From: Deltaproteobacteria bacterium
Lineage (GTDB): Bacteria > Desulfobacterota > JAENJC01
Length of the DNA: 46,760 bases
NCBI GenBank assembly: GCA_016208525.1
Contig: JACQYJ010000004.1
Coordinates: forward strand, 1-46,760
Direction of reading: 5' to 3'
This document shows, one piece after another, positions 8,187 to 46,705 of the stretch. Under the pieces are notes generated by a model. It worked only from the letters and a program-made list of their open reading frames with translations. It did not search any database and was not told the origin of the DNA. Made by a program: the position numbers and the translations under genes. How positions within the stretch are numbered: the first letter of the stretch is position 1; every line of letters starts with the position of its first letter.

Positions 8187-9014
8187 TTATTTCGCATTCT
8201 TATCGGATAGATTAACCATGCTCAATACATATTCAACAAAGAGAATAGCTTTAATAGAATTTTCAGGTGTTCCATAATCAACGCTATTTCCATGTATGAT
8301 TATATGACGGCTCAAAAGGGAAGGCGGATTTTTTTTGATGCTATAACCTTTGTATAGAAACTGAATAAATTCATTAAAAGGGTCTATCATTGACTCATAT
8401 ATTTCGGGGCAGTTTTTGAAACGCTTTTTTACATTGTTTGCTTTCAGTCTATCAACACCCATACAATCATTGTAAATACCTTCTGCCTGAATCAGAAATA
8501 TAGGCACAGACAAATAATATTTTCCATTAAGATGAGCATCAAAGGCATCCACAATAATGTGTTTCCTATTATTGACAATGAGATTAGTAATTATATTCTC
8601 ATAAGCTTCTTTGATATACTCATGTTCGGAAAATGTTTCTATTAGGGCTTTAATGATACCTTCAATCCCCTCTGTCTTTCTAATTTCTTCAAATTCATGC
8701 ACACATTTAGCTGGCCAGGCTGGGCTTATGAACCAACCATGTGGAATCAAAGCCTTATTCAATTCCCGATAAAGTCTCTCCTGTTCACGTATTGCCTTTT
8801 GCATCGCGAAATTTCGATTGAGATATCGCTGCATCTCTGCCTGAACCGCTTTCTTTTGCGATTCAATGAATTCCGATAAATGGAGTGGCATCACGGTATT
8901 AAAATGCCTGATAGGCATTTTATGGATGGCCTCTATATGCAAATAAGGTGAATTTCTTGTTTTGACCTTCATTTCAATCTCTTGAATTAGAAGTCTCTTC
9001 ATATTTCCCCTCAT
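8187..9014 (-). CDS. Hypothetical protein with a possible C-terminal HEPN-like domain (Rx4H)
   Basis: 275 aa and AT-rich. It contains DAFDAHLNGKYYLSVPIFLIQAEGIYND followed by LLSRHIIIHGNSVDYGT (R-x4-H-G). This helix pair plus Rx4-6H layout is typical of HEPN/Abi-type RNases. The start lies 6 nt after the stop of the HA-repeat ORF. Confidence 0.5.
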   Translation of the reverse strand: MRGNMKRLLIQEIEMKVKTRNSPYLHIEAIHKMPIRHFNTVMPLHLSEFIESQKKAVQAEMQRYLNRNFAMQKAIREQERLYRELNKALIPHGWFISPAWPAKCVHEFEEIRKTEGIEGIIKALIETFSEHEYIKEAYENIITNLIVNNRKHIIVDAFDAHLNGKYYLSVPIFLIQAEGIYNDCMGVDRLKANNVKKRFKNCPEIYESMIDPFNEFIQFLYKGYSIKKNPPSLLSRHIIIHGNSVDYGTPENSIKAILFVEYVLSMVNLSDKNAK

Positions 9015-9020
9015 GGTGTG

Positions 9021-10181
9021 CTAATCATCACTTTGATTTCTACAATTCCACTTAAACCCCATATCTTCAAGCCTTTTAACCTTATCTGGTGACAACTTAC
9101 CTTTTTTAAATGCCTGCTTCTTATGGCTTTGCCATATACCAAGCTTAAAGCCCGCTACCGTCTGGTATCTAAGCGGCGCATTCGGTGTTCCAAACTCCTG
9201 CTTATATTTTAGAGTTTCTGTAATACCGTCCTCGAAAGTTTTATCGCGACTATCCCACGGAAACCCAATTTCTTCAAGCCTTCTAATTTTATCAGGCGAC
9301 AGCGTCCCTTTTATAAATGAACCTCTTTGGTACGATTGCCACATTCCAAGTTTAAATCCGTCTTCGGTTATATATTTTTGAGGAGCATCCGCTTTGCCAA
9401 ATTGTTTCCTAAATTTCAAGGTTTCATTAAATCCCTCTTCAAAGGCTTCAGCAGCAACATCCCATGTAAAACCTATGCCCTCCAACAGCTTTATTTGGTT
9501 TTGTGGCAGTTTGCCTTTTTTATGTTGTTGTTTCTTATTTTGTTGCCACGCTCCAAGGCGGAAACCGTTTTCGGTTATATAGCTATTACGAGCATTGGGG
9601 ATTCCAAATTGCGCCTTATGCTTCAAAGTTTCTTGAAACCCTATATCAAATGACTTATCGAAACGATTCCATGCAAAGCCTATTTCCTCTAACCGTCTAA
9701 CTCTTTCACGAGAGAGCTTGCCTTTCGCATAAAATCTTCTGATAACATGCTGCCAACTTCCGAGCTTAAGGCCAGCGGATGACTCATAATTTCTTGGAGC
9801 ATTGGGGGTACCATACTGTTTCATATATTCGAGAGTGTCACGAAAACCTTGTTCAAAAGCATCGTCGAGATGATCCCAGATAAAACCTATTTCCTCTAAT
9901 CGCTGAATCTTGTTTGCAGCCAACAAACCTTTCTTATATGCCTGCCGTCTACTGGCTTGCCATCTTCCAAGCTGGGATCCATTAGCTGCTTTAAACCTCA
10001 ATGGAGCATTTATGGTGCCAACCTTTTCTTTGTAACGCAAAGTTTCTTGAAAACCCTGCTCGAATTGTTCATCAAAGATACTCCATGTAAACCCTATTGC
10101 CTCCATTTTTAAAACTTTTTCCCCGGATAGTCTTCCTCGTTTATAATGTTTCCTTTGATGACCGAGCCAGCTTCCAAGCAT
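9021..10181 (-). CDS. Helicase-associated (HA, PF03457-like) domain repeat protein, 5'-truncated
   Basis: 386 aa made of 5.5 tandem ~69-aa units. Each unit ends ..LG.WQ....(K)KG.L....(I/V).(R)LEEIGF.W. The ORF starts in the middle of a unit, and the missing half is not found in any upstream frame. Confidence 0.7.
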   Translation of the reverse strand: MLGSWLGHQRKHYKRGRLSGEKVLKMEAIGFTWSIFDEQFEQGFQETLRYKEKVGTINAPLRFKAANGSQLGRWQASRRQAYKKGLLAANKIQRLEEIGFIWDHLDDAFEQGFRDTLEYMKQYGTPNAPRNYESSAGLKLGSWQHVIRRFYAKGKLSRERVRRLEEIGFAWNRFDKSFDIGFQETLKHKAQFGIPNARNSYITENGFRLGAWQQNKKQQHKKGKLPQNQIKLLEGIGFTWDVAAEAFEEGFNETLKFRKQFGKADAPQKYITEDGFKLGMWQSYQRGSFIKGTLSPDKIRRLEEIGFPWDSRDKTFEDGITETLKYKQEFGTPNAPLRYQTVAGFKLGIWQSHKKQAFKKGKLSPDKVKRLEDMGFKWNCRNQSDD

Positions 10182-10782
10182 GTGTCCCTTCCTCGCCTTT
10201 GCCCTGCAAAACCCTCATTTGAGAAACCATCTCCTCAAGCCTTTGATCCTGATCTACCATTGCCTGAAGGACTTCCCACACAGTCGCAAAATCAGAACTC
10301 TCTATAATCTCATCTGGATTAGCATCTTCCCCAACCACTGCAGGGATGAATATATATCCCTTCTCCTTCCACTCCGCCTTTCTCATCGCCCTGCCGGTGG
10401 CCTGGACTATGTCAATGAGGCCCTTCTTCGGGTCTATAAAGGCGACCGTATCAACAGCCGGGACATCCACCCCTTCCGTCAAACAGCGGGCGTTGCTCAT
10501 GATTCCGTTCTCCGCCTCTTTGAACTCTTTCATGATGCTGTTTCTCACGCCTGAAGACATCGTGCCGTTGACGTGGAAAAACTTTACTTTTCCTTTTACC
10601 CCCTCCCCTTCATCCCCTCCCGCCGGGGGAGGGGAGATAAAAGAGTGCTCCCTCGCCACTTGTGGAAGCTGCCTGTCCTGAGAGCCGTTCTCTCCTTCGA
10701 CAGGCTCAGGACGAACGGCGCCAAAGGGGTCGTCGGGGTGAAGGGGTGTTTTCAAGCATCTTGAAGACCTGGCCGATTCCAT
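10141..10782 (-). pseudogene. SF2 (DEAD/DEAH, type III res-like) helicase, C-terminal fragment
   Basis: From VKFFHVNGTMSSGVRNSIMKEFKEAENGIMSNARCLTEGVDVPAVDTVAFIDPKKGLIDIVQATGRAMRK the sequence covers helicase motifs IV-VI. The first ~64 codons (..VRPEPVEGE..PPPAGGDEGEG) are translated repeat elements. The frame differs from both neighbouring fragments. Confidence 0.75.
10591..10755. repeat. Composite repeat insertion disrupting the helicase gene
   Basis: It contains ccccctccccttcatcccctcccgccgggggagggg (a GC palindrome of the 'PPLxKGG' family) plus ccttcgacaggctcaggacgaacgg (one arm of the 1217-1335 family). Confidence 0.7.
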
Positions 10783-12058
10783 AGGGCGTCTTTGTGTCTG
10801 TAAACGCCTTTGCCCCGTTTACCCTGGCGTGGAACGTGAAGACCTTTTTCAATCCGTATGCCTTCATCCCTTTGACAAGGGCCACACGCTTTGCAAAAGC
10901 CTTTGCGTCCCATTCGTGCTCATCATCTGTAACGACCCTTCCGCCACGCTGGATTATCTCTCTGACCTCGGAGTCTGTAACGCAGATGACCACGATCTTG
11001 TAATCGGTGATATGCCCTCTTTCTATCGCCTCCCCGAAGGTCATCTCGTAAAACGGCCTGCCGTATGTTTCGGTGTCGTCCATACTGCATATAAGGATGT
11101 CTTCCTCTTTCGCTTTCTTAGTGATATGCGGGGCGTATATCAGAGGAGTGGCTGTCATAAAAATTCTGTTTCTGATGGAGACCTTTTCATCCCGAAGCGC
11201 AAGACTCCATCCGCCGACATCCGTCCCAGTCGTGCGGTGGGCCTCATCAAATATTGCCATATCGAATACCGTGCCTGTCTTTAAGGCCGCTTCCGAAAGG
11301 ACTTTGCTTGATTGGTAGGTAGAGAAAAGGACATAGGTTGAGGAATCGTTGTTGGCAAGGAACTCAGCTACCTTTTCGACATCCGTTGTTACAGGGACGT
11401 CCAACTCGTAGCGGTGTTCTATAGGTGCGTCATTTCGCAGGTCAACGGTTGTATCACTGCACAGACAGAGATAACGGAACGGCTTTATAGAGGTATTTAC
11501 CGCCCATTCCCTCAATGTCTGGCTTAAAAGGGAAAGGCTTGGAACCAGAACAAGTATGCGGGAGCTACCAGACTTTTCAGCTATCCACATGGCGGTAAGG
11601 GTCTTACCAGCGCCGCATGGGAGTATCAATTGTTCCCGGTTTTGCTCTTTGAAATGGGCCAGTGCCGCATCTATGGCCTCTTGCTGGGTCTTATGCGGCT
11701 CCTTTATCGCCGGTGATGAAACGCGCTGTTCTTTGAGATAGATTCTGATGCGGTCAAAGAAATCGGCGTCAAGCTGGTCAAAGCGGTCTGCAAGGATGCG
11801 GCTCTGTTTTGTCCGGTCATTTATTGCAGTAGGCAGGGTGTTTGCATTGGTTATGGTTATACGCCAGTCGGCCCTGTCCGATACGGTGAAGAACGTTGAC
11901 AGTTCCCTGAGAGTTGGGGTATTGTCCCTGTCACGCCTGAATTTAGCCTGATAGGCAAAGAGCTTCCCGTCCCCTCTTTCCTGCTCGGAAGAAAGGGATG
12001 CTATTGCGGTTTCGAGTTCAGGCCATGATTTAACATTATCCAGTAATCTTAAGAGCAT
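10706..12058 (-). pseudogene. SF2 helicase, N-terminal fragment (with a degraded Mrr-like nuclease N-terminus)
   Basis: It has Walker A-type LILPCGAGKTLTA, DEAH-type FDEAHRT and TATP. It ends in out-of-frame repeat sequence. The N-terminal EQERGDGKLF.. looks like the start of an Mrr-type nuclease domain whose catalytic core is missing. Confidence 0.75.
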
Positions 12059-31238: not shown

Positions 31239-32479
31239 CTATTCTCCGCTTACTGTCAGTTCCGATATAAGGAGAGATGGTGCGCCTATCTTACCGAAGA
31301 ACCTGAGGTCATCGCCAAGCGCAGTCACGCTCTTAAGTATATCTATGATATTTCCGGCTATGGCGACCCCTTTTACAGGGTAGGCCTTTTTACCGTTTTC
31401 TATCCATATCCCGGAAGCGCCTACGGAGAAGTCCCCGGATACAGGATTTGCAGTGTGCATCCCCATTGCCTCTGTCACAAAAAGCCCAGTTCCAGCCTTA
31501 TTCAAAAGGAAATCCAAACTAAGGCTTCCCTTTTCTATATAAAGGTTAGTGAGGCCGCAAGACGGCGGGGCCTTGATCCCAGGCCTTACAGCATTGCCTG
31601 TTGACTTGACCCTGTCCTTTTTTGCCGTGTAGACGTCATAGAGGTAACCTTTAAGCACACCGGCCTGAATCAGTGGCGTTCTCTGCCTCGGCACACCTTC
31701 CCCATCCACGGGAGCTGTCCCAATTCCTCCGGGATACAGGCCGTCGTCAAGGATAGTTAAAATTTCTGAGCCAACGGATGCGCCGATCTTGCCTGCAAAA
31801 AGCGACTTGCCCTTCTGGACGGAATCGGCAATGAATGATGAGGCGATAACGCCTAAAAAATCGGCAGCAACACTATTTTCAAGGATGACAGGACAGCGTA
31901 CAGTTTTTATCCGCCTTCCGCCGAGGAGTTGAACGGCATTCTCCGCAGCCCTCTTCCCTATAACTTTCACATCAAGACCGTCATAGAATCTAACTGACTC
32001 AAAATCCGAGCCCATCTCAGACTCCTCGCCCTCCTCAGCGAGTGCAGATACGCTTGCGGAGCAGTACGTCCCTTTGTGATCAATATCTACCCCTCTGGAA
32101 CTAAGTATCGCTACACTGTATTCGGACTCCGAATATGCAGCCTTCCTTACCCTTTTAATCCTGCGGTCAAAAGAAAGGGCCGCATTTTCGAGGGCCTTTG
32201 CCCTTTCGATCTTTTCCTCCTCAGGGACATCCTTCATCCTTGCATCGTAAACTGATACAGAAGGGATTGAACCTCGGCACAGTAAGAAAAACCCTGCCTG
32301 CCGTCGCTGAAGACCCTTAGAGACGCCCCTGTAGTCTCTGAGGCCTCAAAGGAATCAATCTTCCCATCCTTGGATTCGATGGATAGAGAACGGCTGGAGT
32401 TTACATATATCTCGAACTCCTTTATTCCCTTGCTTTTAACCTCAGCATGGACAAGTTTCCTGATCTCGTTTATTTCCAT
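31239..32479 (-). pseudogene. TldD/PmbA-family metalloprotease gene split into two frames (81-aa N-terminal ORF 32234..32479 plus 332-aa ORF 31239..32237)
   Basis: The N-terminal ORF ..GASLRVFSDGRQGFSY matches the PmbA/TldD N-domain. The second ORF has the C-terminal core DGEGVPRQRTPLIQ.G.L..YL.D..and..MH.ANP.SGDFS.GA.G. The two overlap by ATGA, and the second frame stays open upstream of its ATG. Confidence 0.65.
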
Positions 32480-32540
32480 AATTACCTCATTCCTGCTTAT
32501 TTACTAAGGAGAACATAAGTATGACGACATTGTATTTGTC

Positions 32541-32631
32541 ATCTCAAAATCCCCCTCTATCCCCCTTTTCCAAAGGGGGACTTGCTTTCCCCCCTCTTTG
32601 GCAAAGAGGGGTTAGGTGAGATTTTGAAAAT
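32541..32631. repeat. GC-rich palindromic element ('PPLxKGG' family)
   Basis: Sequence is atctcaaaatccccctctatcccccttttccaaagggggacttgctttcccccctctttggcaaagaggggttaggtgagattttgaaaa. Relatives occur at 5338-5373, 10591-10640, 22405-22447 and 29148-29197. Confidence 0.75.
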
Positions 32632-36965: not shown

Positions 36966-39539
36966 ATGGAAAACCTTACACCTGCCATGAGGCAGTATTG
37001 GGAGATAAAGGAAAGGTATCCGGATTCGATCCTGTTTTTCAGGATGGGCGACTTCTATGAGATGTTCTTTGATGACGCCATTACCGCATCAAAGGTCCTT
37101 GAGATAACCCTTACAAAGAGAGGGAAGAGCGGGGGGGAAGATATCCCCCTGTGCGGCGTCCCTTATCATGCGGCAGACGGCTACCTGGCTAAGCTTGTGA
37201 GGCACGGTTTCAGGGTGGCTGTATGCGAGCAGGTGGAGGACCCGAAGACCGCCAAGGGTGTGGTAAAGAGGGACGGAAAGAGCAACTCTTTCCTTATGGC
37301 GATCCATAGAGCGGATGGAAAGTTCGGTCTGGCCTTCCTTGACCTCACCACAGGTGAGTTTCTTGTCACTGAGCTTTCTGATACACAATCACTGAAGGAT
37401 GAGATAGGCCGCCTTGAACCAAAGGAGGTTATTGTCTCTGAAGGAGATGATGAACAGATCGGCCTGCTTCGGGATACCCTTGACGGGGCGCTGATAAACC
37501 GACTTCCGCCTGACAGGTTTGATCACGACAGGGCATTCCGAAATATTACGGAGCATTTCAAGGTTATCTCCCTGGACGGGTTTGGTCTATCCGGTCTAAA
37601 GGCTGCGACATCGGCAGCAGGGGCTGTGCTTTACTACATAAAGGAGACCCAGAAGGTTGAGACCCTTCCAATAAGCGGGATCAAAAGGTACAGCCTTGAT
37701 GACTACCTTTTTATAGATGATTCTGCCAGGAGGAACCTGGAGCTGGCATCTAACCTCCAGAACGGCGGGAAGAAAGGGTCTCTCCTCGGGCTGTTGGACG
37801 AGACCGTGACTTCCATGGGGGGGCGCAAACTGCGGAGCTGGCTCAACTATCCACTGATGGATGTAGACAGGATAAACGAGAGGCTTGACGCAGTCACGGA
37901 GTTGAAGGAGTGGCAGCTTGTGAGAAACAGGCTCAGGGAGACCCTTGGCGGGGTTTACGACATTGAACGCCTCAACTCAAGGATAACCCTCGGAAGCGCC
38001 AACGCCAGGGAGATGGTTGCAATGGCCTCCTCCCTCAAGAGGATACCTGAGATAAAGGCAGTGTTGAGCAACGAGCAACGGGCAATGAGTAAACTGCTGA
38101 ATGATATCGTGGAGGGGCTGGATGGCCTCCCTGATGTGGTGAAACTCATTGACGACGCCGTTCTGGAAAACCCTCCCTTTATACTCAGGGAAGGCGGTAT
38201 CATAAGGGACGGTTACAATCTGGAGCTTGACGACCTGCGCTCTATCAGCCGGGATGGCAAGGGTTATATTGCAAGGATTGAATCAAGGGAAAAAGAACGC
38301 ACAGGGATAAACTCCCTGAAGGTTCGTTACAACAAGGTCTTTGGTTACTATATAGAGGTCACCCAGGCAAACCTTTCCGCCATTCCTGCGGATTACATAA
38401 GAAAGCAGACCCTCGTAAACGCTGAAAGGTTCATAACCCCTGAGCTGAAGGAGTACGAGGCAACGGTCCTTACAGCAGAGGAAAGGATAAGGGAGATCGA
38501 GTATCGCCTCTTTCAGGAGGTAAGGGAGAGGGTTGCGGCAGAGTCGGCGCGGATACAGAAGACGTCGGAAGGACTCGCAATAGTTGATGCCCTGGCCTCT
38601 CTGGGCGAGGTGGCAGACAGGTTTAACTATACAAGACCTGAAATATCGGACTCCTGCCCCCTTCGGATAGTCAGCGGCAGACACCCTGTCGTTTCGAGCA
38701 TCTCCCGTTCCAACAGGTTCGTCCCGAACGACACATTCCTCGATTCCGGGGAAAACCAGATAGCCATCATTACAGGCCCAAATATGGCCGGAAAGTCCAC
38801 ATACATAAGACAGGTGGCCCTCATCACCATCATGGCCCAGATGGGGAGCTTCGTGCCGGCAGAGGAAGCCGAGATAGGGGTGGTGGACAGGGTATTCAGC
38901 AGGGTGGGGGCATCGGACGACCTCTCAAAGGGACAGAGCACATTCATGGTGGAGATGATAGAGACCGCCAATATCCTGAACAATGGCACATCTAAAAGCC
39001 TTATAATCCTTGATGAGATAGGCAGGGGGACATCTACCTTTGACGGACTGAGCATAGCATGGGCAGTGGCCGAGTATATATCCGACAGGGTAAAGGCAAA
39101 GACACTCTTCGCCACTCACTATCACGAGCTTACAGACCTTGCCCTTCTCAGGGGAAATATAAGGAACTTTAACGTGGCTGTAAGGGAGTGGAACGACCAG
39201 GTAATATTCCTGCATAAGATAGTGCCCGGTGGGGCAGACAGGTCTTACGGCATTCATGTTGCCCGGCTGGCCGGACTCCCTCAGGAACTCCTGCGAAGGG
39301 CCAGGGAGATACTCCTGAACCTTGAGAAAGGAGAATTCTCCCCAGAGGGGATGCCGAAGCTGGCTCAGATAAAAAAAGAGAGTGGTCAGGGGTCGGGAGT
39401 CAGGGGTCAGTTAGAGGCGCAACTGCCACTATTTGCCCCGAGGGACACACTAAGGGACGAGTTAAGGAGCATTGATGCGGATAACATGACCCCTCTTCAG
39501 GCGCTGGCAAAGATCGAGGAGCTCAAAAGGCTTATATGA
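36966..39539 (+). CDS. mutS: DNA mismatch repair protein MutS (with an atypical domain I/II junction and an in-frame heptamer insert)
   Basis: 857 aa with TPAMRQYWEIKERYPD..FFRMGDFYEMF (the Phe-x-Glu mismatch motif), Walker A GPNMAGKST, and DEIGRGTSTFDG..ATHYHEL. Confidence 0.95.
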   Translation: MENLTPAMRQYWEIKERYPDSILFFRMGDFYEMFFDDAITASKVLEITLTKRGKSGGEDIPLCGVPYHAADGYLAKLVRHGFRVAVCEQVEDPKTAKGVVKRDGKSNSFLMAIHRADGKFGLAFLDLTTGEFLVTELSDTQSLKDEIGRLEPKEVIVSEGDDEQIGLLRDTLDGALINRLPPDRFDHDRAFRNITEHFKVISLDGFGLSGLKAATSAAGAVLYYIKETQKVETLPISGIKRYSLDDYLFIDDSARRNLELASNLQNGGKKGSLLGLLDETVTSMGGRKLRSWLNYPLMDVDRINERLDAVTELKEWQLVRNRLRETLGGVYDIERLNSRITLGSANAREMVAMASSLKRIPEIKAVLSNEQRAMSKLLNDIVEGLDGLPDVVKLIDDAVLENPPFILREGGIIRDGYNLELDDLRSISRDGKGYIARIESREKERTGINSLKVRYNKVFGYYIEVTQANLSAIPADYIRKQTLVNAERFITPELKEYEATVLTAEERIREIEYRLFQEVRERVAAESARIQKTSEGLAIVDALASLGEVADRFNYTRPEISDSCPLRIVSGRHPVVSSISRSNRFVPNDTFLDSGENQIAIITGPNMAGKSTYIRQVALITIMAQMGSFVPAEEAEIGVVDRVFSRVGASDDLSKGQSTFMVEMIETANILNNGTSKSLIILDEIGRGTSTFDGLSIAWAVAEYISDRVKAKTLFATHYHELTDLALLRGNIRNFNVAVREWNDQVIFLHKIVPGGADRSYGIHVARLAGLPQELLRRAREILLNLEKGEFSPEGMPKLAQIKKESGQGSGVRGQLEAQLPLFAPRDTLRDELRSIDADNMTPLQALAKIEELKRLI

Positions 39540-39553
39540 TTCAGGAGGACAAA

Positions 39554-42500
39554 ATGAGCTATTTATGGACAATTGAAAATCTGTCAACATTGACAAGGCA
39601 CCCTGCGCCAAAGGTCAGGGAGTGGGCATCTGAAAGGCTTAAGACTTTGTATGGAAATGATGGCATTTCTGCGCTGGAAGGGCTGCTTAAAGAGAGGGAC
39701 AGGGGGTTGCTGACGAAGGCCCTGGACTACCTCCTTGAATATCCTTCTCCTCAATTCGCAGACCTGGCGCTTGACATATACAAACGGGAAAATGGTCATA
39801 TTGCCGGCATGTGCGCAATGGTCCTTGCAAAGCTCAAAGACAACCGGCTTGTCTCGGCCTTTGATGAAAAAGAATTCGTGGCCGGTAAAGAAGGATTGAT
39901 CGAGCTGCTTGCCGTGTGCAAGGCGCTGGGCGAGTTAGGGACAGATGCTGCCTGTAAAACACTGCAAACCATTATATATCATTCCGGGAAGAAGCCGGAT
40001 ACTGTTTCCATAAAAACTGTCCTGACTTCCATCCTGGATACAGGAAGTGGAGTTGATACAGTCCTCGAATTCTATCTTAACCATTATAAAAACTCAGGAA
40101 CAGCCGTCATTTCGGCCCTGATGGACTACTGCCAGTTCTGGCATAACGATGAGGAGCTTTCCGAAGGCAAGAAAGGGTTTTTCAGGAAGGGGTTCCCACC
40201 GGTGGTTGAAAACGCAATACATATTCTCAAATCTAACTCAGGGGACAAGATCGGCAGAGAGTTGGAGCGGCTTTTCAGGAAGGAGGATTTTTCAGGCGTC
40301 ATAGCGGCAGTCTTTGAATATGCTGATAATCTTGTAAAAGAAGCGGCTGAGCATGTCGGGGATAAATCTTTTTCAGAATGGGATATGCGAGAATCTCAGG
40401 CAAAGACAAACTACGACCTCATCCTTGCTATAAAAAATCTTCCTTCCCATCCCAAAGATGCTGACAAGGGGCTTGCAATGGCTGCAATTGGTTCACTTGC
40501 CAGACTTGACGAGATGAAATTACTTATTGGTCTTTCAATAACCATGGGGATCAAAGTCCTTCTTGATGAATTCCTGGAAGACAGGGGAGACACGGTGGAT
40601 GACAAATGGATTGAGGAAATCCTGCTGAATTCCTCCGAGAGGGATACGGTTGTTGATGAGACCATCCGTATTATAAAATGGAAAGCATATTCTCTCGGAA
40701 CCAGGCGTGGGATAAGCCTCTTGGGCCTTATCGGGGATGAAAGGGCGATCCCGTGCCTTGTCGAGCTTATCGGCAAAAAATCAGGAGATCTCGATGATGA
40801 GACAATAGATGAGGCGCTGGCTGCCCTCGTCCGCTTCGGAGAAAGGGCATTGCCCGCCCTTGAAAAGCTGATGGACGGCTCCGACCGTTCGGCAATCAAT
40901 GAAGCGTTTTTCATTTTAAAGGACATCCCCGCAAAAAAGACCGAAGAGCTTCTTCTCAGAAATTGGGACAGGTTTATGGGCATAAACAGGGAGCTGTTTA
41001 CAATGGCCCTGGGGGACGTTGCGTCAAAAGAATTCATCCCGCTCCTCCGCAAGGAAATAAAGGAGGGTGAGTTGATAGAGGCCGAAGTCTTCCACCTTCT
41101 CTGCCTTATTCACGGAGTGAAGGACCCATTGCTGCCGCAGATCGAGGAGGAACTGAAGAGGTCGGAAGAGGAAATGAAGAAGGCATTTGCCGGTTTTAAG
41201 GAGGGCGGCCTTTCATCCCTCATAGAGGCCCCGCTTAATCTTGAATTGAAATGCATGGACTGCGGGAGGGCGTATCACTACAAGATAGATGAGGTGGTCA
41301 TTAACTCCGAAAAACCGGGATCAGAACCGGAGATCACAGATATGATTACCTGTAAGAACTGCGGCTCTGTCAACAACTATGAATTGACGGATAAGGGGAG
41401 TACAAACCTGGCAATACGGGCATCCATGATAGCTGGTCTGTTGAAAGAGGGCAAGATTGAAGACCCGCTGGCATTGCCGATAAAGTTTATGAAGATGCGT
41501 TTTATGGGAAACAGGCCCATGTCTTCATTTAAAGAGGCCATTGAGGAATATAGAAGGGAGTTGGAAAAGAGTCCGCATGATCCCGCCCTGCGCATCGGCT
41601 ACGGGAACATGCTAAGGAGGAAGGGGATGTTAAACGAGGCTGAGTCCCAATTCAGTGAAGCTGCAAGGCTTGAACCCAATGCGGTCGAGGCGTATACACA
41701 GCTTGGGGAGATAGCGGAGAAGAGGGGGGATATCCATGCGGCATATAATTTTTATGCAAAGGCCCTTCAAAGGATGCCCGACGCCAGATATTTCAGGACC
41801 CAGGATATAGACGGGTATAAAGAAATGGTCGTGGATAAGCACCACTATCTCCGGCAGATTGCAGAAGGGAAGACCGATGTCAATCTTATCGAGGACGTGA
41901 TAAAGATAGAGCCTCACAGGAAAAAGGCGGGAAGGAACGACCCCTGTCCGTGCGGGAGCGGAAAGAAATACAAGAAATGCTGCCTTGCAAAGGATGAGGC
42001 TGCAAGCCACAAGACCGCAGTCACCTTGGTAGAGAGCAGCCTCACGGACAGACTCCTTTCCTTCGCCCTCCAGCAGCGGCTAAAAAAAGATTTTGAAAGC
42101 GCTTATTCCCTCTATTTCAAGAAACCTTTCAGAGAGCCGGTTGTCATGGACGAGGAGGATATTGAGTTCGGCGTCTTTCTGGATTGGTTTATCCACGATT
42201 TTCTGTTAAAGAGCGGGAAGACCGTTGTTGAAGAGTTCTACCAGGAGAATTTCCGCAGGATTTCAGGAGAGGAAAAAGCGGTGCTTGAATCGGAGATGCT
42301 TTCTTATCTGAGCGTTTATGAAGTGGCAGCAGTGGTTCCGGATGAAGGACTTATGCTTCATGACCTGATCACAGGGGAAGAGTTTGAGGTCAAGGACGTG
42401 AGGGGTTCCCGGAGCCTTGTCAGGTGGGACATTGTCATTGCCCGCGCAATAAGGCATAAAGCGGCCAACAAGCTGTCGGGCTTTGTGATGATCCTTCCGA

Positions 42501-43378
42501 GGGATGATAGAGAGAGATTTATGGCGGTTCTTTCAGCGAGGCGGGAGGAGTTCAGGAAAGAGACTGGGAAGAAGGAGTGGAGCGCCTTTTTGAAGTCAAG
42601 GGGGTATCTCCTTTTCCACACCTTCAATGAGCGAGAGACGTCAACGCCTGTTCCGTTCACTGAGGAGCGTCATCGGCTCATTGAGGCCAGGGCTGAATAT
42701 TACGCAGCGGATTTCCAATCAGCCCGCCGCCTCCTGTCTAATGAATTTGATTTTGTACTTGATGAGGAAAAGGAAGGGAAGGAGTTGCAATATACATGGC
42801 TGAAGCGCGGGAAGTCCGAGGCATGGGAAGAGGGCAAGCTGCCAAAGGAAGCAGGCATGCGGCCTATTATCATGCAATCTCAATTGATAAGCCAGGGCGG
42901 AGAGGTCCGCTTTAGCGCCCTCGGATCTATAAAAATAACTGCCAATAGACTGACCCTTGAATGCATCTCCAAAGAAAGGCTCGAACGCGGGAAGGCGAGG
43001 CTGAAGGAGATATTGGGAGACATTGTTCAGCACAAACAGGATTCAGTTAAGGCCTTTGAACCGTCCGGCAGCGAAAGAGACAAGAGACCTTCTGAGAATA
43101 TTGAAACAGGGATAGATAACGAAGCGAAGATATCTTTAATGTCCAGGTATTACAGCCAATATGTGGAAGAATGGATAAAGAGTCCGATACCGGCCCTTAA
43201 CGGCCTTTCGCCCCTTGAATCATGCAAGACCGAAGCAGGAAGGGCCAGGGTAGATGAAATCCTCAAGGGGATGGAAAACAGCGAGGAGCGAAATAGGCGG
43301 GACGGGAAGCCTTATATGGATGTGAACAAGATAAGGGAAAAACTGGAGGAGAGGCGTTGTGAAAAAGGTAAAAAGTAA
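39554..43378 (+). CDS. Large multidomain orphan protein: HEAT-like repeats / CxxC..CxxC zinc ribbon / TPR / SEC-C motif / unknown region / DUF2384-like C-terminal segment
   Basis: The ORF is open from 39536 (ATG overlapping the mutS TGA). ATG 39554 has a perfect SD aggagg (39543-39548) 5 nt upstream. The HEAT/PBS-lyase-like region reads ..ERAIPCLVELIGKKSGDLDDETIDEALAALVRFGERALPALEKLMDGSD... The zinc ribbon is CMDC (41252-) ... CKNC (41351-). The TPR region is ~41545-41785. The SEC-C motif is RNDPCPCGSGKKYKKCC (~41929-41985). The C-terminus WIKSPIPALNGLSPLESCKTEAGRARVDEILKGME (~43168-43270) resembles the Xre/MbcA/ParS (DUF2384) toxin-binding domain. Confidence 0.8.
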   Translation: MSYLWTIENLSTLTRHPAPKVREWASERLKTLYGNDGISALEGLLKERDRGLLTKALDYLLEYPSPQFADLALDIYKRENGHIAGMCAMVLAKLKDNRLVSAFDEKEFVAGKEGLIELLAVCKALGELGTDAACKTLQTIIYHSGKKPDTVSIKTVLTSILDTGSGVDTVLEFYLNHYKNSGTAVISALMDYCQFWHNDEELSEGKKGFFRKGFPPVVENAIHILKSNSGDKIGRELERLFRKEDFSGVIAAVFEYADNLVKEAAEHVGDKSFSEWDMRESQAKTNYDLILAIKNLPSHPKDADKGLAMAAIGSLARLDEMKLLIGLSITMGIKVLLDEFLEDRGDTVDDKWIEEILLNSSERDTVVDETIRIIKWKAYSLGTRRGISLLGLIGDERAIPCLVELIGKKSGDLDDETIDEALAALVRFGERALPALEKLMDGSDRSAINEAFFILKDIPAKKTEELLLRNWDRFMGINRELFTMALGDVASKEFIPLLRKEIKEGELIEAEVFHLLCLIHGVKDPLLPQIEEELKRSEEEMKKAFAGFKEGGLSSLIEAPLNLELKCMDCGRAYHYKIDEVVINSEKPGSEPEITDMITCKNCGSVNNYELTDKGSTNLAIRASMIAGLLKEGKIEDPLALPIKFMKMRFMGNRPMSSFKEAIEEYRRELEKSPHDPALRIGYGNMLRRKGMLNEAESQFSEAARLEPNAVEAYTQLGEIAEKRGDIHAAYNFYAKALQRMPDARYFRTQDIDGYKEMVVDKHHYLRQIAEGKTDVNLIEDVIKIEPHRKKAGRNDPCPCGSGKKYKKCCLAKDEAASHKTAVTLVESSLTDRLLSFALQQRLKKDFESAYSLYFKKPFREPVVMDEEDIEFGVFLDWFIHDFLLKSGKTVVEEFYQENFRRISGEEKAVLESEMLSYLSVYEVAAVVPDEGLMLHDLITGEEFEVKDVRGSRSLVRWDIVIARAIRHKAANKLSGFVMILPRDDRERFMAVLSARREEFRKETGKKEWSAFLKSRGYLLFHTFNERETSTPVPFTEERHRLIEARAEYYAADFQSARRLLSNEFDFVLDEEKEGKELQYTWLKRGKSEAWEEGKLPKEAGMRPIIMQSQLISQGGEVRFSALGSIKITANRLTLECISKERLERGKARLKEILGDIVQHKQDSVKAFEPSGSERDKRPSENIETGIDNEAKISLMSRYYSQYVEEWIKSPIPALNGLSPLESCKTEAGRARVDEILKGMENSEERNRRDGKPYMDVNKIREKLEERRCEKGKK

Positions 43379-43495
43379 ACCGCAGAATGCTGAAATGGCC
43401 GACTATGATTCGGATGAGACCTTTTATCCTAAAAACGGCAGTTGTTCTCGCAAAGCCGCAAAGTACGCGAAGAAAACAAAAGACTTGGAATTTAA

Positions 43496-43697
43496 CCTAA
43501 AAAAAGCATTTGCCACTGACTTTCACGGACTAAGAGCAAGTAATTAAAAGATTTTTCGACAAGCATTTAATTAAAAGATTTTTCGACAAGCATTAGAATC
43601 ACCTTTTGGGTGAACTGCTCATAATGTTTGAATGTTTCTTTGATAAGGTTTTGTCCGTATTTGTCCGTGGCCAACTGCCGTTTTTAGGTTTAAAAGT
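43496..43697. mobile_element. MITE copy 3 (complete, 202 bp, with an internal ~27-bp tandem duplication) flanked by a 5-bp direct duplication TTTAA
   Basis: The left end is cctaaaaaaagcatttgccactgactttcacggac and the right end is gtccgtatttgtccgtggccaactgccgtttttagg. tttaa occurs at 43491-43495 and at 43698-43702. The unit taattaaaagatttttcgacaagcat is duplicated at 43541-43566 and 43568-43593. Confidence 0.8.
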
Positions 43698-43814
43698 AAT
43701 TCACCTGTCTGGTGATCCTGGTTTTCAACCAAATCTATTGATTTTCCTCTGCGATCTCTGCGTCCTCTGCGGTTAAATGCTCTTTTTAGGTTTATTATAT
43801 TGCAGGGTATACGG

Positions 43815-43945
43815 ATGGCGGCGCTCCCTATGGCGTAACATGGGAAGAGATGGAGAAAGAAGCGGCAGGAGAGACAACAGGGTCAAGGGATTAGTCATTA
43901 AGGTTCCAAATCCCGTCAACCTCCTGGGCGCCCCACACAGATTCA
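43815..43945 (+). ncRNA. Candidate molybdenum cofactor (Moco) riboswitch upstream of moaC (tentative)
   Basis: The position is upstream of moaC-moaA. The hairpin gggatt(43887-43892)...aatccc(43909-43914) is followed by GUCAACCUCC. I recall CCCGUCAACC plus a GGyC..GGG stem as conserved in the Moco RNA motif. The 5' CCUCCGAGCC block that I also recall is not evident here. Confidence 0.3.
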
Positions 43946-43988
43946 GGTTCACTGTTGACAATAAGTGCGCAAGGTGGCATTCTACAGC

Positions 43989-44486
43989 ATGGAAAAGAAG
44001 CTGACTCACTTTAATTCTTATGGAAGGGCAAGGATGGTGGACGTGTCCGCCAAGGAGGCAACCGAAAGGGTTGCCGTAGCCGGCGGGAAGGTGCGGATGC
44101 AGCCCGAAACTCTGAAGCTCATACAGGCAGGGAAGATGAAAAAGGGGGATGTGCTTGCTGTGGCCCAGGTAGCCGGGATCATGGGGGCAAAGAAGACATC
44201 GGAACTCATCCCAATGTGCCATCCTCTTCTTCTCACGTCCGTGGATATAACCTTCAGCGAAGATGCTGCCCTGGATTTAGACGGCCTCGTATCCATCCAT
44301 CTGGAGGCCAGGGTCAAGACCACAGGCCAGACAGGGGTTGAAATGGAGGCCCTCACCGCAGTCACCACGACGCTCCTTACCATATACGACATGTGCAAGG
44401 CCGTTGACAAAGGAATGAGCTTTGAGGATATATCACTTCTGTCCAAGACAGGCGGGAAGTCGGGAGAATACAAGAGAAAGGGGTGA
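43989..44486 (+). CDS. moaC: Cyclic pyranopterin monophosphate synthase
   Basis: [22 protein letters not shown]..and..[30 protein letters not shown] 43989 is preferred over GTG 43965. Confidence 0.9.
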
Positions 44487-45587: not shown

Positions 45588-45604
45588 ATCAGGGAAGACC
45601 TACA

Positions 45605-46705
45605 CTGGCAGAGATAGACCTGGATGCCCTTGGTTATAATTACAGCAAGATAAAAGAAAAGACAGGGGACAAAAAGGTACTTGCCGTTGCAAAGGCCAAT
45701 GCCTATGGACATGGCGCTGTGGAGGTTTCAGGTGAGCTGGAAAGGCTCGGCGCCGACTATCTGGGCGTTGCCATCCTTCCTGAAGGGATTGAACTCAGAA
45801 ATGCAGGGATCAGCAGGCCGATACTCCTTCTGAACGGCATATTCCAGGGGGAGGCTGCTTATGTGCTTAAGCATAACCTTACCCCCGTGATCTTTTCAAT
45901 AGATACCGCCATGGAGATTTCCAGTGAGGCTGCTAAGGCCGGAAAAACAGTCCCTGTGCATGTAAAGATAGATACGGGGATGAGGAGGCTTGGGCTCTTG
46001 CCGGGCGAAGTAGAGCAGTTTTTGGGAAGACTCAAAGAACTGAAAAACATAAAGGTTGAAGGGGTTCTCTCCCACTTTGCAACAGCGGACAGCAAGGACA
46101 GAGGGTTCATGGATGAGCAGGTCGGCGCTTTTTCTGATGTAGTCGGGAAAATCAGGTCTATGGGGTTTTCCCCTGAGTATATCCATATAGCCAACAGCGC
46201 TGCAATAATTGCCGACAACCTCCCTGATTATCTTAACATGGTGAGGCCTGGAATAACCCTTTACGGCTCCCACCCCTCCATCTGGTTCCGGGATAAGATA
46301 GACCTGAAGCCGGTCATGACCCTTAGAAGCGGGTTAGTCCAGATAAAAAGGGTTAAGAAGGGTGAAAGTGTAAGCTATGCAAGGACGTTCACGGCTGAGA
46401 GGGACAGTATTGTAGCGGTGGCGCCGATAGGATATGCCGACGGGTATCCGAGGCGCCTTTCCAATATTGGCGAGGTAATAATAAGGGGGAAGACCGCTAA
46501 AGTAGCAGGGCTTGTATGCATGGACCTCCTGATGATAGATGTAACCGATGTGCCTGAGGTGTCTGCAGGTGATAAAGTGGTTCTGTGGGGAGTCGGGATG
46601 CATGTTGACGAACTGGCAAGGAAGGCGGGAACCATTTCATACGAACTTTTTTGCAGGGTCTCCGGAAGGGTGCCGAGGAATTATATAAAACAAGGTAAAA
46701 GGTGA
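45605..46705 (+). CDS. alr: Alanine racemase (start codon uncertain; no canonical start upstream of the catalytic Lys)
   Basis: The frame is open from 45557. The conserved N-terminus (GRPT)LAEIDLDALGYNY..VLAVAKANAYGHG, which includes the PLP lysine, lies upstream of the track's GTG at 45719. The only in-frame candidates are CTG 45605 (9 nt after aggga), CTG 45620, ATC 45578 and ATT 45557. The C-terminal part reads VSYARTF..IGYADGYPR. Confidence 0.8.
   Translation: MAEIDLDALGYNYSKIKEKTGDKKVLAVAKANAYGHGAVEVSGELERLGADYLGVAILPEGIELRNAGISRPILLLNGIFQGEAAYVLKHNLTPVIFSIDTAMEISSEAAKAGKTVPVHVKIDTGMRRLGLLPGEVEQFLGRLKELKNIKVEGVLSHFATADSKDRGFMDEQVGAFSDVVGKIRSMGFSPEYIHIANSAAIIADNLPDYLNMVRPGITLYGSHPSIWFRDKIDLKPVMTLRSGLVQIKRVKKGESVSYARTFTAERDSIVAVAPIGYADGYPRRLSNIGEVIIRGKTAKVAGLVCMDLLMIDVTDVPEVSAGDKVVLWGVGMHVDELARKAGTISYELFCRVSGRVPRNYIKQGKR

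What the first reader, a model, noticed from the sequence alone, without database searches (positions are those of the whole stretch)
39536..43378. Giant orphan protein (HEAT / Zn-ribbon / TPR / SEC-C / unknown / DUF2384-like) immediately downstream of mutS
**Position**
- A 1274-1280-aa ORF begins either at an ATG overlapping the mutS stop (ATGA, 39536) or, more likely, at ATG 39554. The latter lies behind a perfect AGGAGG.
- The short gap to mutS makes co-transcription with mutS likely.

**Domain architecture**
1. About 560 aa of HEAT/PBS-lyase-like repeats.
2. A CxxC...CxxC zinc ribbon.
3. Two or three TPRs.
4. A canonical SEC-C zinc motif, RNDPCPCGSGKKYKKCC. This is known from the SecA C-terminus and from YecA/YchJ.
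5. About 330 aa of unassigned sequence.
6. WIKSPIPALNGLSPLESCKTEAGRARVDEILKGME. This closely resembles the C-terminal toxin-binding domain of Xre/MbcA/ParS (DUF2384) antitoxins.

**Assessment**
- I know of no characterised protein with this combination.
- It looks like a scaffold or sensor rather than an enzyme.
- No cognate RES/ART-type toxin gene is adjacent.
Basis: partly seen in the sequence, partly recalled or inferred. Interest (0 to 1): 0.65.

Follow-up and report, generated by a model that had tools for sequence, protein, structure and literature searches.

The report
Large SEC-C/DUF7986 scaffold protein after mutS
The 1274-residue gene after mutS is real and built as described, but it is not an orphan: it belongs to a widespread, catalogued family of unknown function, and its position next to mutS is not conserved in any relative examined.

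Summary
These are a ~560-aa HEAT solenoid, a four-Cys zinc ribbon, three TPR pairs, a SecA-type SEC-C metal-binding knuckle and a C-terminal Xre/MbcA/ParS-like element.

- **Not an orphan.** The "unassigned" 330 aa are Pfam DUF7986 (PF25948). An exhaustive search found 271 cluster representatives at E<=1e-30. Thirteen of them are 1250-1280 aa and align end to end with this protein, with all zinc ligands invariant. GenBank names members only "SEC-C metal-binding domain-containing protein".
- **The mutS linkage is not conserved.** None of seven independent informative loci has mutS next to the gene. In the nearest relative (67% identity) the gene has lost ~1.8 kb and sits beside restriction-modification, RecQ and SNF2 genes.

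No RES/ART toxin lies in the window or beside any family member. The antitoxin-like element is an integral part of the module across the family.

AlphaFold models are confident (pLDDT 92 and 90). The N-half matches only generic HEAT/TPR scaffolds. The DUF7986 core has no solved homologue; its sub-domains resemble an OB/cold-shock barrel and, weakly, a TBP-like fold.

Most likely it is a non-catalytic adaptor docked through its SEC-C knuckle. That mechanism is inferred, not shown.

The parts
36966..39539 (+). mutS, the upstream neighbour (context only, not part of the family's conserved unit)
   Evidence: All five MutS Pfam domains are present. Its stop TGA at 39537-39539 overlaps ATG 39536.
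39543..39548 (+). Shine-Dalgarno-like AGGAGG, 5 nt before ATG 39554
   Evidence: Read directly from the sequence. The equivalent GGAGGA is present in the nearest relative L097.
39554..43378 (+). Whole ORF, 1274 aa plus stop codon (alternative start ATG 39536 gives 1280 aa)
   Evidence: ORF list. It aligns end to end with 13 relatives of 1250-1280 aa.
39572..41227 (+). HEAT/ARM-type alpha-solenoid, residues 7-558
   Evidence: The AlphaFold model (pLDDT 89.8) is all-helical over this stretch. Foldseek matches alphaRep (8.4e-6), mTOR HEAT repeats, karyopherins and CAND1. Pfam HEAT_2 matches at 387-446.
41234..41506 (+). Beta-rich zinc-ribbon domain, residues 561-651, with CxxC (567, 570) and CxxC (600, 603)
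   Evidence: All four Cys are invariant in 14 sequences. Beta strands are modelled at 561-611 and 643-651. All 13 representatives with an N-extension of 700 aa or more have CxxC...CxxC.
41528..41863 (+). TPR region, residues 659-770 (six helices, about three TPRs)
   Evidence: Pfam TPR_2, TPR_19 and TPR_11 match. The model shows six helices. Consensus-TPR structures match with probability 1.0.
41933..41986 (+). SEC-C (SecA-type) metal-binding knuckle, residues 794-811, preceded by a low-confidence linker (773-790)
   Evidence: Pfam SEC-C scores 40.3 bits. The family profile matches the SecA and YchJ MBD chains at 3e-8 to 1e-7. The motif is invariant in the family.
41987..43054 (+). DUF7986 core, residues 812-1167. 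Sub-parts: helical domain (to ~916), small beta-barrel (919-981, nt 42308-42496), connecting helices, and an alpha/beta domain (1031-1167, nt 42644-43054)
   Evidence: PF25948 is precomputed for this protein and its homologues. The AlphaFold model has pLDDT 92. Barrel-type local matches to CSD, eIF5A, EF-P and PAN-N have probability 0.95-1.0. TBP-like hints come from YwmB (probability 0.87) and Pithovirus TFIID (3.6e-4). Which residues each match covers was not reported, so the assignment to sub-domains is inferred from secondary structure.
43118..43372 (+). C-terminal helical bundle, residues 1189-1273, containing the Xre/MbcA/ParS-like (DUF2384-like) element at 1206-1241
   Evidence: Pfam scores 28.3 bits against a cut-off of 24.5. 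The family profile matches Xre antitoxin 6gw6_B (3.7e-4) and ParS 6d0h_B (0.014). W1207, P1213, L1215 and P1220 are invariant.
41158..42986 (+). Segment missing from the nearest relative's copy (L097): ribbon, TPR, SEC-C and most of DUF7986
   Evidence: tblastx of L097 against the window. The gene calls in L097 are a 564-aa ORF followed by a 123-aa ORF.
43667..43715 (+). Two terminator-like hairpins about 300 nt after the stop codon, inside the 586-nt gap before moaC
   Evidence: Consensus scan only. No Rfam family matches in 43300-44050.

Best explanation
**What it is (shown; my confidence about 0.9)**
- The gene encodes a cytoplasmic protein with no recognisable catalytic domain.
- It belongs to the widespread but uncharacterised SEC-C/DUF7986 family.
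- It is an old, stable fusion of two units that also exist as separate proteins:
  - a HEAT solenoid + zinc ribbon + TPR platform that ends in a SEC-C knuckle;
  - a DUF7986 module that begins with a SEC-C knuckle. This module is a helical domain, an OB/cold-shock-like barrel, an alpha/beta domain and a DUF2384-like helical bundle.
- The single SEC-C knuckle sits at the junction of the two units.

**How it most likely works (inferred; my confidence about 0.3)**
- The SecA-type metal-binding knuckle docks the protein onto a partner. By analogy with SecA and AscA/YecA, that partner is the ribosome or a SecB-like chaperone.
- The HEAT/TPR platform and the DUF7986 core then bind client protein(s), and possibly nucleic acid.
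- The DUF2384-like bundle is a built-in protein-contact element of the module, not the antitoxin of a neighbouring toxin.

**Position after mutS**
- This is incidental to this genome.

The single confidence figure of 0.4 is a compromise between the identity part (about 0.9) and the mechanism part (about 0.3).
For: **Family membership and fusion**
- Pfam finds HEAT_2, TPR, SEC-C and Xre_MbcA_ParS_C. PF25948 (DUF7986) is precomputed for this protein and all homologues.
- The exhaustive search gave 271 representatives at E<=1e-30 and 2149 at E<=1e-10.
- Thirteen 1250-1280-aa representatives align end to end with invariant Zn ligands.
- Of 157 representatives, 79 are the stand-alone module and 119 have SEC-C directly before the module.
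- In stand-alone modules SEC-C is at the extreme N-terminus.
- The N-half exists alone and ends just after SEC-C, in L016.

**Non-catalytic scaffold**
- The N-half gives only HEAT/ARM/TPR matches.
- No enzyme family or fold matches the C-half.
- Residues conserved in at least 90% of the 90-sequence alignment are mostly hydrophobic or structural.

**Docking through the MBD**
- The motif is near-identical to the SecA MBD.
- AscA/YecA binds SecB (KD ~150 nM) and 70S ribosomes only when its MBD is present (10.1101/2020.07.21.215244).
- The SecA MBD binds SecB and ribosomes (10.1101/613315).

**Integral DUF2384-like element**
- It is detected in most members of every architecture class scanned.
- It is modelled with high confidence as part of the module.

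**Incidental mutS adjacency**
- None of 7 informative loci has mutS adjacent.
Against: - No binding partner has been shown for any family member.
- In SecA, YecA and YchJ the MBD is terminal. Here it is internal, so accessibility is assumed. The linker before it is low-confidence and probably flexible.
- An MBD can serve other roles. In YchJ the C-terminal Cys and Lys residues sense ROS and contact DNA (PMC13377102).
- Several charged residues are invariant in the full-length clade: D882, E907, E923, D959, R964, D1066, R1142, K1147 and R1149. A novel catalytic site is therefore not excluded.
- Some loci lie among conflict-type genes, which the adaptor model does not explain.
Confidence: 0.4

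Rival explanations
1. Conflict or defence-related sensor. The SEC-C/DUF7986 module is the sensing or regulating subunit of an anti-phage or other conflict system. Its DUF2384-like bundle holds a variable or unlinked effector in check. The HEAT/TPR platform acts as a target-recognition surface.
For: - Gene neighbourhoods are variable and the nearest relative carries a decayed copy, as is typical of accessory genes.
- L097 lies next to Eco57I-type RM, an N6/N4 methyltransferase, PLD, RecQ and SNF2 genes.
- L014 lies next to IS110 and an SNF2 + NOV_C helicase.
- MNT/HEPN pairs sit beside stand-alone members in L001/L002 and L022.
- PemK is upstream in L095. DUF4258 is downstream in L098. A PD-(D/E)XK nuclease lies near L015.
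- A SWIM/DUF6880-like ~650-aa protein recurs in L011, L015 and, weakly, L019.
- The C-terminal element is homologous to toxin-binding domains.
Against: - PADLOC hits come only from the SEC-C motif, the TPR and a marginal HEAT score. None covers the core.
- There is no PHROG or viral structural homologue of the core.
- Other loci, including this window, are plain housekeeping.
- No effector is conserved across loci.
- The sample of about 18 loci is small and was not tested against a background rate.
Confidence: 0.2
2. Redox or metal sensor and regulator. The SEC-C knuckle, with the second four-Cys ribbon, senses oxidation or Fe/Zn status, as proposed for SecA-like MBDs and shown for YchJ. It switches the OB/TBP-like core between nucleic-acid-binding states.
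For: - Two invariant Cys-based metal sites are present.
- MBDs bind Fe as well as Zn and were proposed as stress sensors (10.1101/613315).
- YchJ uses its C-terminal MBD Cys and Lys residues for ROS-dependent DNA binding (PMC13377102).
- OB/cold-shock-like and TBP-like sub-folds are suggested.
- One member carries a HARE-HTH domain.
Against: - No DNA-binding domain is detected in this protein.
- HARE-HTH is rare: 1 of 20 extended members scanned.
- The fold matches are local and weak in E-value.
- Nothing in the locus suggests a regulon.
Confidence: 0.1
3. MutS-coupled DNA-repair accessory factor. The protein is translated from the mutS transcript and works with MutS in mismatch repair.
For: - The start and stop codons overlap, or are separated by only 14 nt, with no terminator between.
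- A RecD-like helicase is upstream in L014. RecQ and SNF2 genes lie near L097.
- recN lies 4.5 kb upstream in the window.
Against: - mutS is adjacent in none of 7 informative relatives and is absent from the 9 loci tested by tblastn (for the rest).
- The upstream genes differ in every locus: pyruvate-carboxylase subunit, smpB, recD-like, pemK, kduI/iolB, an unknown gene plus SNF2, and an unknown gene preceded by frdABCD.
- Homology with the nearest relative starts exactly at the mutS stop, as expected for a separately placed gene.
Confidence: 0.05
4. Genuine type II antitoxin domain fused to a giant protein. The C-terminal DUF2384 element neutralises a RES/ART-type toxin encoded elsewhere in the genome.
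For: - The Pfam Xre_MbcA_ParS_C score is above its cut-off.
- The family profile matches Xre (6gw6_B, 3.7e-4) and ParS (6d0h_B, 0.014).
Against: - No RES/ART gene lies in the 46.7-kb window or next to any of about 18 family loci.
- The protein has no Xre HTH domain.
- The element is a constant part of a roughly 450-aa module.
- The rest of the genome could not be searched.
Confidence: 0.05

Closest known systems
Pfam DUF7986 (PF25948) proteins, annotated in GenBank as 'SEC-C metal-binding domain-containing protein' (e.g. MCX5912990.1 from Deltaproteobacteria, MBI5187187.1 from Nitrospinota)
   Same: Homologous over the whole length with the 1250-1280-aa members (25-38% identity). Homologous over the C-terminal 460 aa with the stand-alone ~450-aa members. 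The SEC-C motif and the C-terminal W...PAL...P...E motif are the same.
   Different: Nothing of substance: this protein is a member. The family has no known function, no solved structure and no paper in the searched library.
SecA C-terminal metal-binding domain and the SEC-C proteins AscA/YecA and YchJ
   Same: The GRNDPCPCGSGKKYKxC motif is near-identical. In those proteins the MBD binds Zn or Fe, SecB and ribosomes. In YchJ it contributes redox-sensitive Cys and DNA-contacting Lys residues.
   Different: Here the MBD is internal rather than terminal. The protein has no SecA ATPase, UPF0149 or UPF0225/NTF2-like domain. Similarity is confined to about 20 residues.
Xre/MbcA/ParS (DUF2384) antitoxins of RES-Xre, MbcTA and ParST systems
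   Same: The C-terminal helical element matches the toxin-binding domain in Pfam (28.3 bits) and in profile-to-PDB searches.
   Different: The protein has no N-terminal Xre HTH domain and no adjacent toxin gene. It is 1274 aa rather than about 110-150 aa. The element is embedded in a larger conserved module.
HEAT/PBS-lyase-type alpha-solenoids (alphaRep designs, karyopherins, CAND1, mTOR HEAT) and TPR scaffolds
   Same: The fold of residues 7-558 and 659-770.
   Different: The resemblance is generic repeat architecture, with 10-16% identity and poor global superposition. It implies protein binding but no particular partner.

Membership tests
SEC-C motif proteins (PF02810) | CxCx8C[CH] metal-binding knuckle within GRNDPCPCGSGKKYKxC | tested here: met
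   Pfam scores 40.3 bits against a cut-off of 20.4, at residues 794-811. The family profile matches SecA/YchJ MBD chains at about 1e-8. The motif is invariant in 14 relatives.
DUF7986 (PF25948) | Match to the family profile over the ~330-aa core after SEC-C | tested here: met
   PF25948 is listed among the precomputed Pfam hits of this very protein (P0001) and of all 8 homologues. It is named DUF7986. The model is absent from the local Pfam copy, so the score itself was not recomputed. Homology to annotated members is E=6e-40 or better.
DUF7986 (PF25948), full-length HEAT-ribbon-TPR subclass | End-to-end alignment of ~1250-1280 aa with conserved CxxC...CxxC upstream of SEC-C | tested here: met
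   Alignment A2 gives 25-38% identity with C567, C570, C600 and C603 invariant. All 13 representatives with a long N-extension have the ribbon.
Xre/MbcA/ParS type II antitoxins | C-terminal DUF2384 toxin-binding domain | tested here: met
   Pfam scores 28.3 bits against a cut-off of 24.5. The profile matches 6gw6_B at 3.7e-4 and 6d0h_B at 0.014. NCBIfam Xre_ParS_antitoxin scores only 22.9 bits against a cut-off of 90.
Xre/MbcA/ParS type II antitoxins | N-terminal Xre-type HTH DNA-binding domain | tested here: not met
   No HTH family appears in the Pfam or NCBIfam scans. The residues before the element belong to DUF7986.
Xre/MbcA/ParS type II antitoxins | Adjacent, co-oriented RES / MbcT / ParT toxin gene | tested here: not met
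   Downstream is a 586-nt gap without a credible ORF, then moaC. No RES/ART family appears in any window gene or beside family members elsewhere.
SecA / AscA(YecA) / YchJ | MBD at the extreme C-terminus, attached to a SecA ATPase, UPF0149 or UPF0225 (NTF2-like) domain | tested here: not met
   The MBD is internal (794-811 of 1274). NCBIfam YecA/YchJ-type models match only through the ~25-residue motif and fall far below their cut-offs.
SecA / AscA(YecA) / YchJ | MBD-dependent binding to SecB and/or 70S ribosomes | not testable with these tools
   This needs co-sedimentation or microscale thermophoresis, as in 10.1101/2020.07.21.215244.
HEAT repeat proteins (PF13646) and TPR proteins | Tandem anti-parallel helix pairs forming a solenoid | tested here: met
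   Pfam HEAT_2 scores 43.5 bits and TPR_2 scores 33 bits. The model is helical throughout. Foldseek matches alphaRep and consensus TPR structures.
Known anti-phage defence systems (PADLOC-DB v2) | Match of the protein's core to a defence-system model | tested here: not met
   The hits come from the SEC-C motif (E2, E1-E2, PDC-S12), the TPR (PrimPol) and a marginal HEAT-ARM score. None covers the core.
mutS operon partner | Conserved adjacency to mutS in relatives | tested here: not met
   None of 7 informative loci has mutS adjacent. tblastn with the window's MutS finds nothing on the 9 loci tested. The remaining loci are covered.

The most novel reading that the evidence does not exclude
The SEC-C/DUF7986 module, with its antitoxin-like C-terminal bundle, could be the sensor or adaptor of an undescribed surveillance system. 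This could be a ribosome-docked quality-control device. It could also be a conflict system that works with SWIM/DUF6880 and SNF2-type partners. In the second case the DUF2384-like bundle would restrain an unlinked effector, and the 790-aa HEAT-ribbon-TPR platform would recognise the trigger.
Probability: 0.1. Interest if true: 0.65.

Novelty: new member of a known kind. Interest (0 to 1): 0.3.

Why it matters
The result removes a false lead: the protein is neither an orphan nor a conserved MutS partner. It places the protein in a large family that has never been studied, with thousands of clusters, no paper and no solved structure. That family couples a SecA-type metal-binding knuckle to a conserved ~450-aa core ending in an antitoxin-like bundle.

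If the knuckle docks these proteins on ribosomes or SecB, as it does for SecA and AscA/YecA, the family would be a new class of ribosome- or chaperone-associated factors. The confident models and the list of stand-alone members give a practical entry point for experiments. This particular gene adds little beyond being one more member.

Tried and rejected
**Searches that did not help**
- The full-length word-indexed homologue search was swamped by TPR proteins and returned only the query plus three unrelated TPR giants. I replaced it with searches of the C-terminal part and the N-terminal part, and with the exhaustive search.
It returned mostly unrelated SEC-C proteins, one full-length orthologue and a few module loci.
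- Both metagenome scans found nothing, with the single protein and with the two-sequence alignment.

**Negative results**
- PADLOC, PHROGs and the viral structure library show no defence or phage homologue of the core.
- Rfam finds nothing in the 586-nt gap before moaC, so there is no Moco riboswitch.
- Literature searches for PF25948, DUF7986 and SEC-C + DUF2384 returned nothing.

**Ideas considered and dropped**
- P0005 and P0006 (636 and 628 aa) as a genuinely shorter architecture. They fill 2-kb contigs almost completely, so they may be truncated. This was left unresolved.
- HARE-HTH as a typical N-terminal partner. It occurs in only 1 of 20 extended members scanned.
- smpB as a conserved neighbour. 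It is directly adjacent only in L011/L012 and lies 4 kb away in L007.
- A regular expression I wrote for the C-terminal motif was badly designed (1 of 157 hits). I ignore that result.

Full report
**1. The observation**

It runs from 39536 to 43378 on the + strand and encodes 1280 aa, or 1274 aa from ATG 39554. The sequence shows ATGA at 39536-39539 overlapping the mutS stop, AGGAGG at 39543-39548, and ATG at 39554. The upstream gene has all five MutS domains.

I favour ATG 39554 as the start, for two reasons:
- Most full-length relatives begin 2-3 residues before the conserved Trp of "MSYLW".
- The nearest relative keeps a GGAGGA box in front of that ATG.

No terminator-like or promoter-like site lies between mutS and the ORF on the + strand. 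Read-through transcription from mutS is therefore plausible in this genome.

**2. Domain architecture**

All residues are numbered from ATG 39554.

Pfam confirms the named domains:

| Domain | Residues | Score |
|---|---|---|
| HEAT_2 | 387-446 | 43.5 bits |
| TPR families | 659-745 | TPR_2 33 bits |
| SEC-C | 794-811 | 40.3 bits (cut-off 20.4) |
| Xre_MbcA_ParS_C | 1206-1241 | 28.3 bits (cut-off 24.5) |

The AlphaFold model of residues 1-790 was built from a 22-sequence alignment (pLDDT 89.8, pTM 0.78). It shows:
- one continuous alpha-solenoid from 7 to 558;
- a beta-rich domain at 561-651 carrying the two CxxC pairs;
- six TPR-type helices at 659-770;
- a low-confidence linker at 773-790 leading into SEC-C.

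Against the PDB this half matches only generic repeat scaffolds: alphaRep (8.4e-6), mTOR HEAT, RanBP5, Kap121, CAND1 and consensus TPRs.

**3. Not an orphan**

The full-length word-indexed search was swamped by TPR proteins. Searching residues 815-1274 alone found eight homologues, every one carrying the precomputed Pfam family PF25948. That family is also listed for the window's own protein. A later output names it DUF7986. The "about 330 aa of unassigned sequence" is thus a curated family of unknown function that is newer than my local Pfam copy.

The exhaustive search with residues 787-1274 gave these counts of cluster representatives:

| E-value threshold | Representatives |
|---|---|
| 1e-3 | 9780 (many through SEC-C alone) |
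| 1e-10 | 2149 |
| 1e-30 | 271 |

Thirteen representatives are 1250-1280 aa long with the module at the same position. They align with this protein end to end at 25-38% identity. The following are invariant:
- the four ribbon cysteines;
- the whole SEC-C motif apart from two positions;
- W1207, P1213, L1215 and P1220 in the C-terminal element.

A further full-length copy (40% identity over residues 3-1265) is in a Thermodesulfobacteriota MAG.

Public names for members are generic:
- "SEC-C metal-binding domain-containing protein" (Deltaproteobacteria MAG);
- "SEC-C domain-containing protein" (Nitrospinota MAG);
- "TPR repeat protein".

No paper in the searched library mentions PF25948 or DUF7986.

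**4. Modular structure of the family**

Architecture classes among 157 representatives:

| Class | Count |
|---|---|
| Bare module (~450 aa) | 79 |
| N-extension of 150-700 aa (2 of these also have a C-extension) | 52 |
| C-extension only | 13 |
| N-extension of 700 aa or more, all with CxxC...CxxC | 13 |

- SEC-C sits directly before the module in 119 of 157.
- In the bare modules SEC-C is at the extreme N-terminus.
- A Syntrophobacteraceae MAG encodes the N-terminal half alone: an 823-aa protein that ends a few residues after its SEC-C motif (L016).

The window's protein is therefore best read as "platform-SEC-C" joined to "SEC-C-DUF7986" through one shared knuckle. The shorter N-extensions give weak HEAT/TPR hits or none. 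HARE-HTH occurs once among 20 members scanned.

**5. The C-terminal module**

The model of residues 787-1274 was built from a 90-sequence alignment and is confident (pLDDT 92, pTM 0.84). Its parts, in order:
- the SEC-C knuckle;
- a helical domain, to about residue 916;
- a small beta-barrel at 919-981;
- connecting helices;
- an alpha/beta domain at 1031-1167;
- a helical bundle at 1189-1273.

Foldseek finds no PDB entry at E<=1e-3, so the core has no solved homologue.

The confident local matches (probability 0.95-1.0, 63-95 aligned columns) are OB or cold-shock-type barrels: YB-1 and YBX2 CSD, eIF5A, EF-P and the PAN N-domain. I assign these to the 919-981 barrel on the basis of secondary structure, because the tool does not report the aligned residues.

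Weaker hints point to a TBP-like fold: B. subtilis YwmB (probability 0.87) and a Pithovirus TFIID-like protein (3.6e-4, but rmsd 23 Å). I tentatively assign these to the alpha/beta domain. Neither observation is strong enough to claim nucleic-acid binding.

The family profile searched against PDB sequences matched:
- the SecA and YchJ MBDs, at 3e-8 to 1e-7;
- the Xre antitoxin of a RES-Xre system (6gw6_B), at 3.7e-4, through profile positions 406-455;
- ParS (6d0h_B), at 0.014.

The DUF2384 resemblance is thus real homology or strong convergence at the profile level. The element is found in most members of every architecture class, which makes it an integral part of DUF7986.

**6. The mutS linkage**

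| Locus | Relative | Gene upstream |
|---|---|---|
| L009/L099 | P0013 cluster | pyruvate-carboxylase-type subunit (HMGL-like/PYC_OADA) |
| L011/L012 | P0014 | smpB, with overlapping stop and start |
| L014 | Thermodesulfobacteriota MAG | RecD-like helicase; a split IS110 transposase and an SNF2 + NOV_C helicase lie downstream |
| L095 | P0021 | PemK toxin |
| L096 | P0038 | KduI/IolB |
| L097 | P0162 | unknown 387-aa gene preceded by SNF2, RecQ, PLD, a methyltransferase and an Eco57I-type enzyme |
| L098 | P0045 | unknown 166-aa gene preceded by frdABCD |

Three further loci (L010, L013, L094) have too little upstream sequence to judge. tblastn with the window's MutS finds nothing on the nine loci tested.

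In the nearest relative (67% identity, L097), homology with the window begins exactly at the ATG that overlaps the mutS stop. It runs to window position 41158, then resumes at about 42986 in another reading frame. That copy has lost about 1.8 kb, covering the ribbon, TPR, SEC-C and most of DUF7986. It is called as two ORFs of 564 aa and 123 aa. Nothing else in L097 is syntenic with the window.

**7. Context in the window**

The window is core housekeeping of a Gram-negative organism:
- rpsB-tsf-pyrH-frr-uppS-cdsA;
- lpxB, waaA and a miaB-like gene;
- tgt, queA, spoIID and pmbA/tldD;
- recN and nadK;
- mutS, then the ORF;
- moaC, moaA and alr.

GC content across the ORF is unremarkable. No gene in the window matches a RES or ART family. 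The 586-nt gap after the ORF holds no credible ORF and no Rfam family.

**8. Recurrent neighbours elsewhere**

I clustered 161 neighbouring ORFs from 18 module-bearing loci. Three families recur:
- **A ~650-aa SWIM-finger protein with a DUF6880-like C-terminus.** It appears in L011 and L015 (36% identity over 652 aa) and weakly in L019.
- **SNF2 helicases.** They appear in L014 and L097.
- **MNT/HEPN pairs.** They appear in L001/L002 and L022.

None of these has a homologue in the window. The sample is small and was not compared with a background rate, so I treat these as leads only.

**9. Mechanism**

*Shown:*
- The protein is a member of the SEC-C/DUF7986 family.
- It has a two-unit fusion architecture.
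- It has two Cys-based metal sites.
- No catalytic family or fold is detected.
- There is no adjacent toxin.
- There is no conserved operon partner.

*Inferred:*
- The SEC-C knuckle is near-identical to the SecA MBD.
- The SecA MBD binds SecB and ribosomes (10.1101/613315).
- The equivalent MBD is required for AscA/YecA to bind SecB (KD ~150 nM) and 70S ribosomes (10.1101/2020.07.21.215244).

From this I infer that the knuckle docks the protein on a ribosome or SecB-like partner. The HEAT/TPR platform and the DUF7986 core would then engage clients.

I put this mechanism at about 0.3. A conflict-system sensor is the main rival at about 0.2. A YchJ-like redox or metal sensor is next at about 0.1 (PMC13377102). 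A MutS partner and a true antitoxin are each at about 0.05.

**10. Verdict**

- The gene is a new member of a catalogued but uncharacterised family, not a categorically new object.
- Its neighbourhood carries no functional signal.
- Interest is modest at 0.3. The family as a whole is a reasonable target for study, but this locus adds nothing special to it.

Noticed in passing
L097:10001-12011 (JGI 3300045950, 43-kb contig): The nearest relative's copy (67% identity) has lost ~1.8 kb, equivalent to window 41158-42986, and continues in another frame. It is called as a 564-aa ORF plus a 123-aa ORF. It lies after Eco57I-type RM, an N6/N4 methyltransferase, PLD, RecQ, SNF2 and an unknown 387-aa gene. 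It is followed by a STAS-like DUF4325 gene. This could be a decaying accessory gene or an assembly artefact.
   Followed up: partly
L011:3079-5022, L015:12888-14927 (- strand), L019:11897-12958: A ~650-aa protein with a SWIM zinc finger and a DUF6880-like C-terminus recurs near DUF7986 genes of different architectures. L011 and L015 share 36% identity over 652 aa, and the match in L019 is weak. It may be a functional partner. No copy is in the window.
   Followed up: partly
L016:8969-11440 (Syntrophobacteraceae MAG): An 823-aa protein equals the N-terminal half alone (HEAT + zinc ribbon + TPR) and ends right after a SEC-C motif. It is followed by an FHA protein, a VgrG-like (Phage_GPD/gp5) protein and another HEAT protein.
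   Followed up: partly
L001:2004-2707, L002:2121-2824, L022:1718-2459: Nucleotidyltransferase (MNT) + HEPN pairs lie directly beside two different stand-alone SEC-C/DUF7986 genes. The two MNT genes share 31% identity.
   Followed up: no
P0009-P0012 (774-804 aa, high G+C): These members lack SEC-C. After the C-terminal bundle they carry an extension that repeats the 'FLDWFxFDW' helical motif and the following barrel-like segment. This looks like a partial internal duplication of the module.
   Followed up: no
window 7271-12058 (- strand): A low-GC islet (0.36-0.41 at 8-10 kb) sits within otherwise uniform housekeeping DNA. It holds a DUF3800 gene, an unknown 274-aa gene, a protein with five helicase-associated (HA) repeats, and a helicase split into two overlapping ORFs in different frames (Helicase_C at 10141-10782, ResIII/DEAD at 10706-12058).
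   Followed up: partly
window 31239-32560 (- strand): The PmbA/TldD-like ORF (31239-32237) lacks its N-terminal domain. A plausible N-terminal segment ('MEINEIRKLV...RVFSDGRQGFSYC') reads in another frame just upstream. This is either a frameshift or a sequencing error.
   Followed up: partly
window 45600-45720: The conserved N-terminus of alanine racemase, including AVAKANAYGHG with the PLP lysine, lies in frame upstream of the first ATG/GTG/TTG (45719). The gene must use a non-canonical start codon, or its start is mis-called.
   Followed up: partly
window 43379-43964: A 586-nt non-coding gap lies between the ORF and moaC. It has no credible ORF and no Rfam match, so there is no Moco riboswitch. 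It does contain two terminator-like hairpins at 43667-43715 and a promoter-like site at 43571-43599.
   Followed up: yes
L024:8792-11347 (Acidobacteria MAG): An 851-aa member has a different N-extension (DUF6930 + DUF7309) and a CH-type SEC-C motif (CPCGSGRKYKKCH). This shows that the module accepts unrelated N-terminal partners.
   Followed up: no
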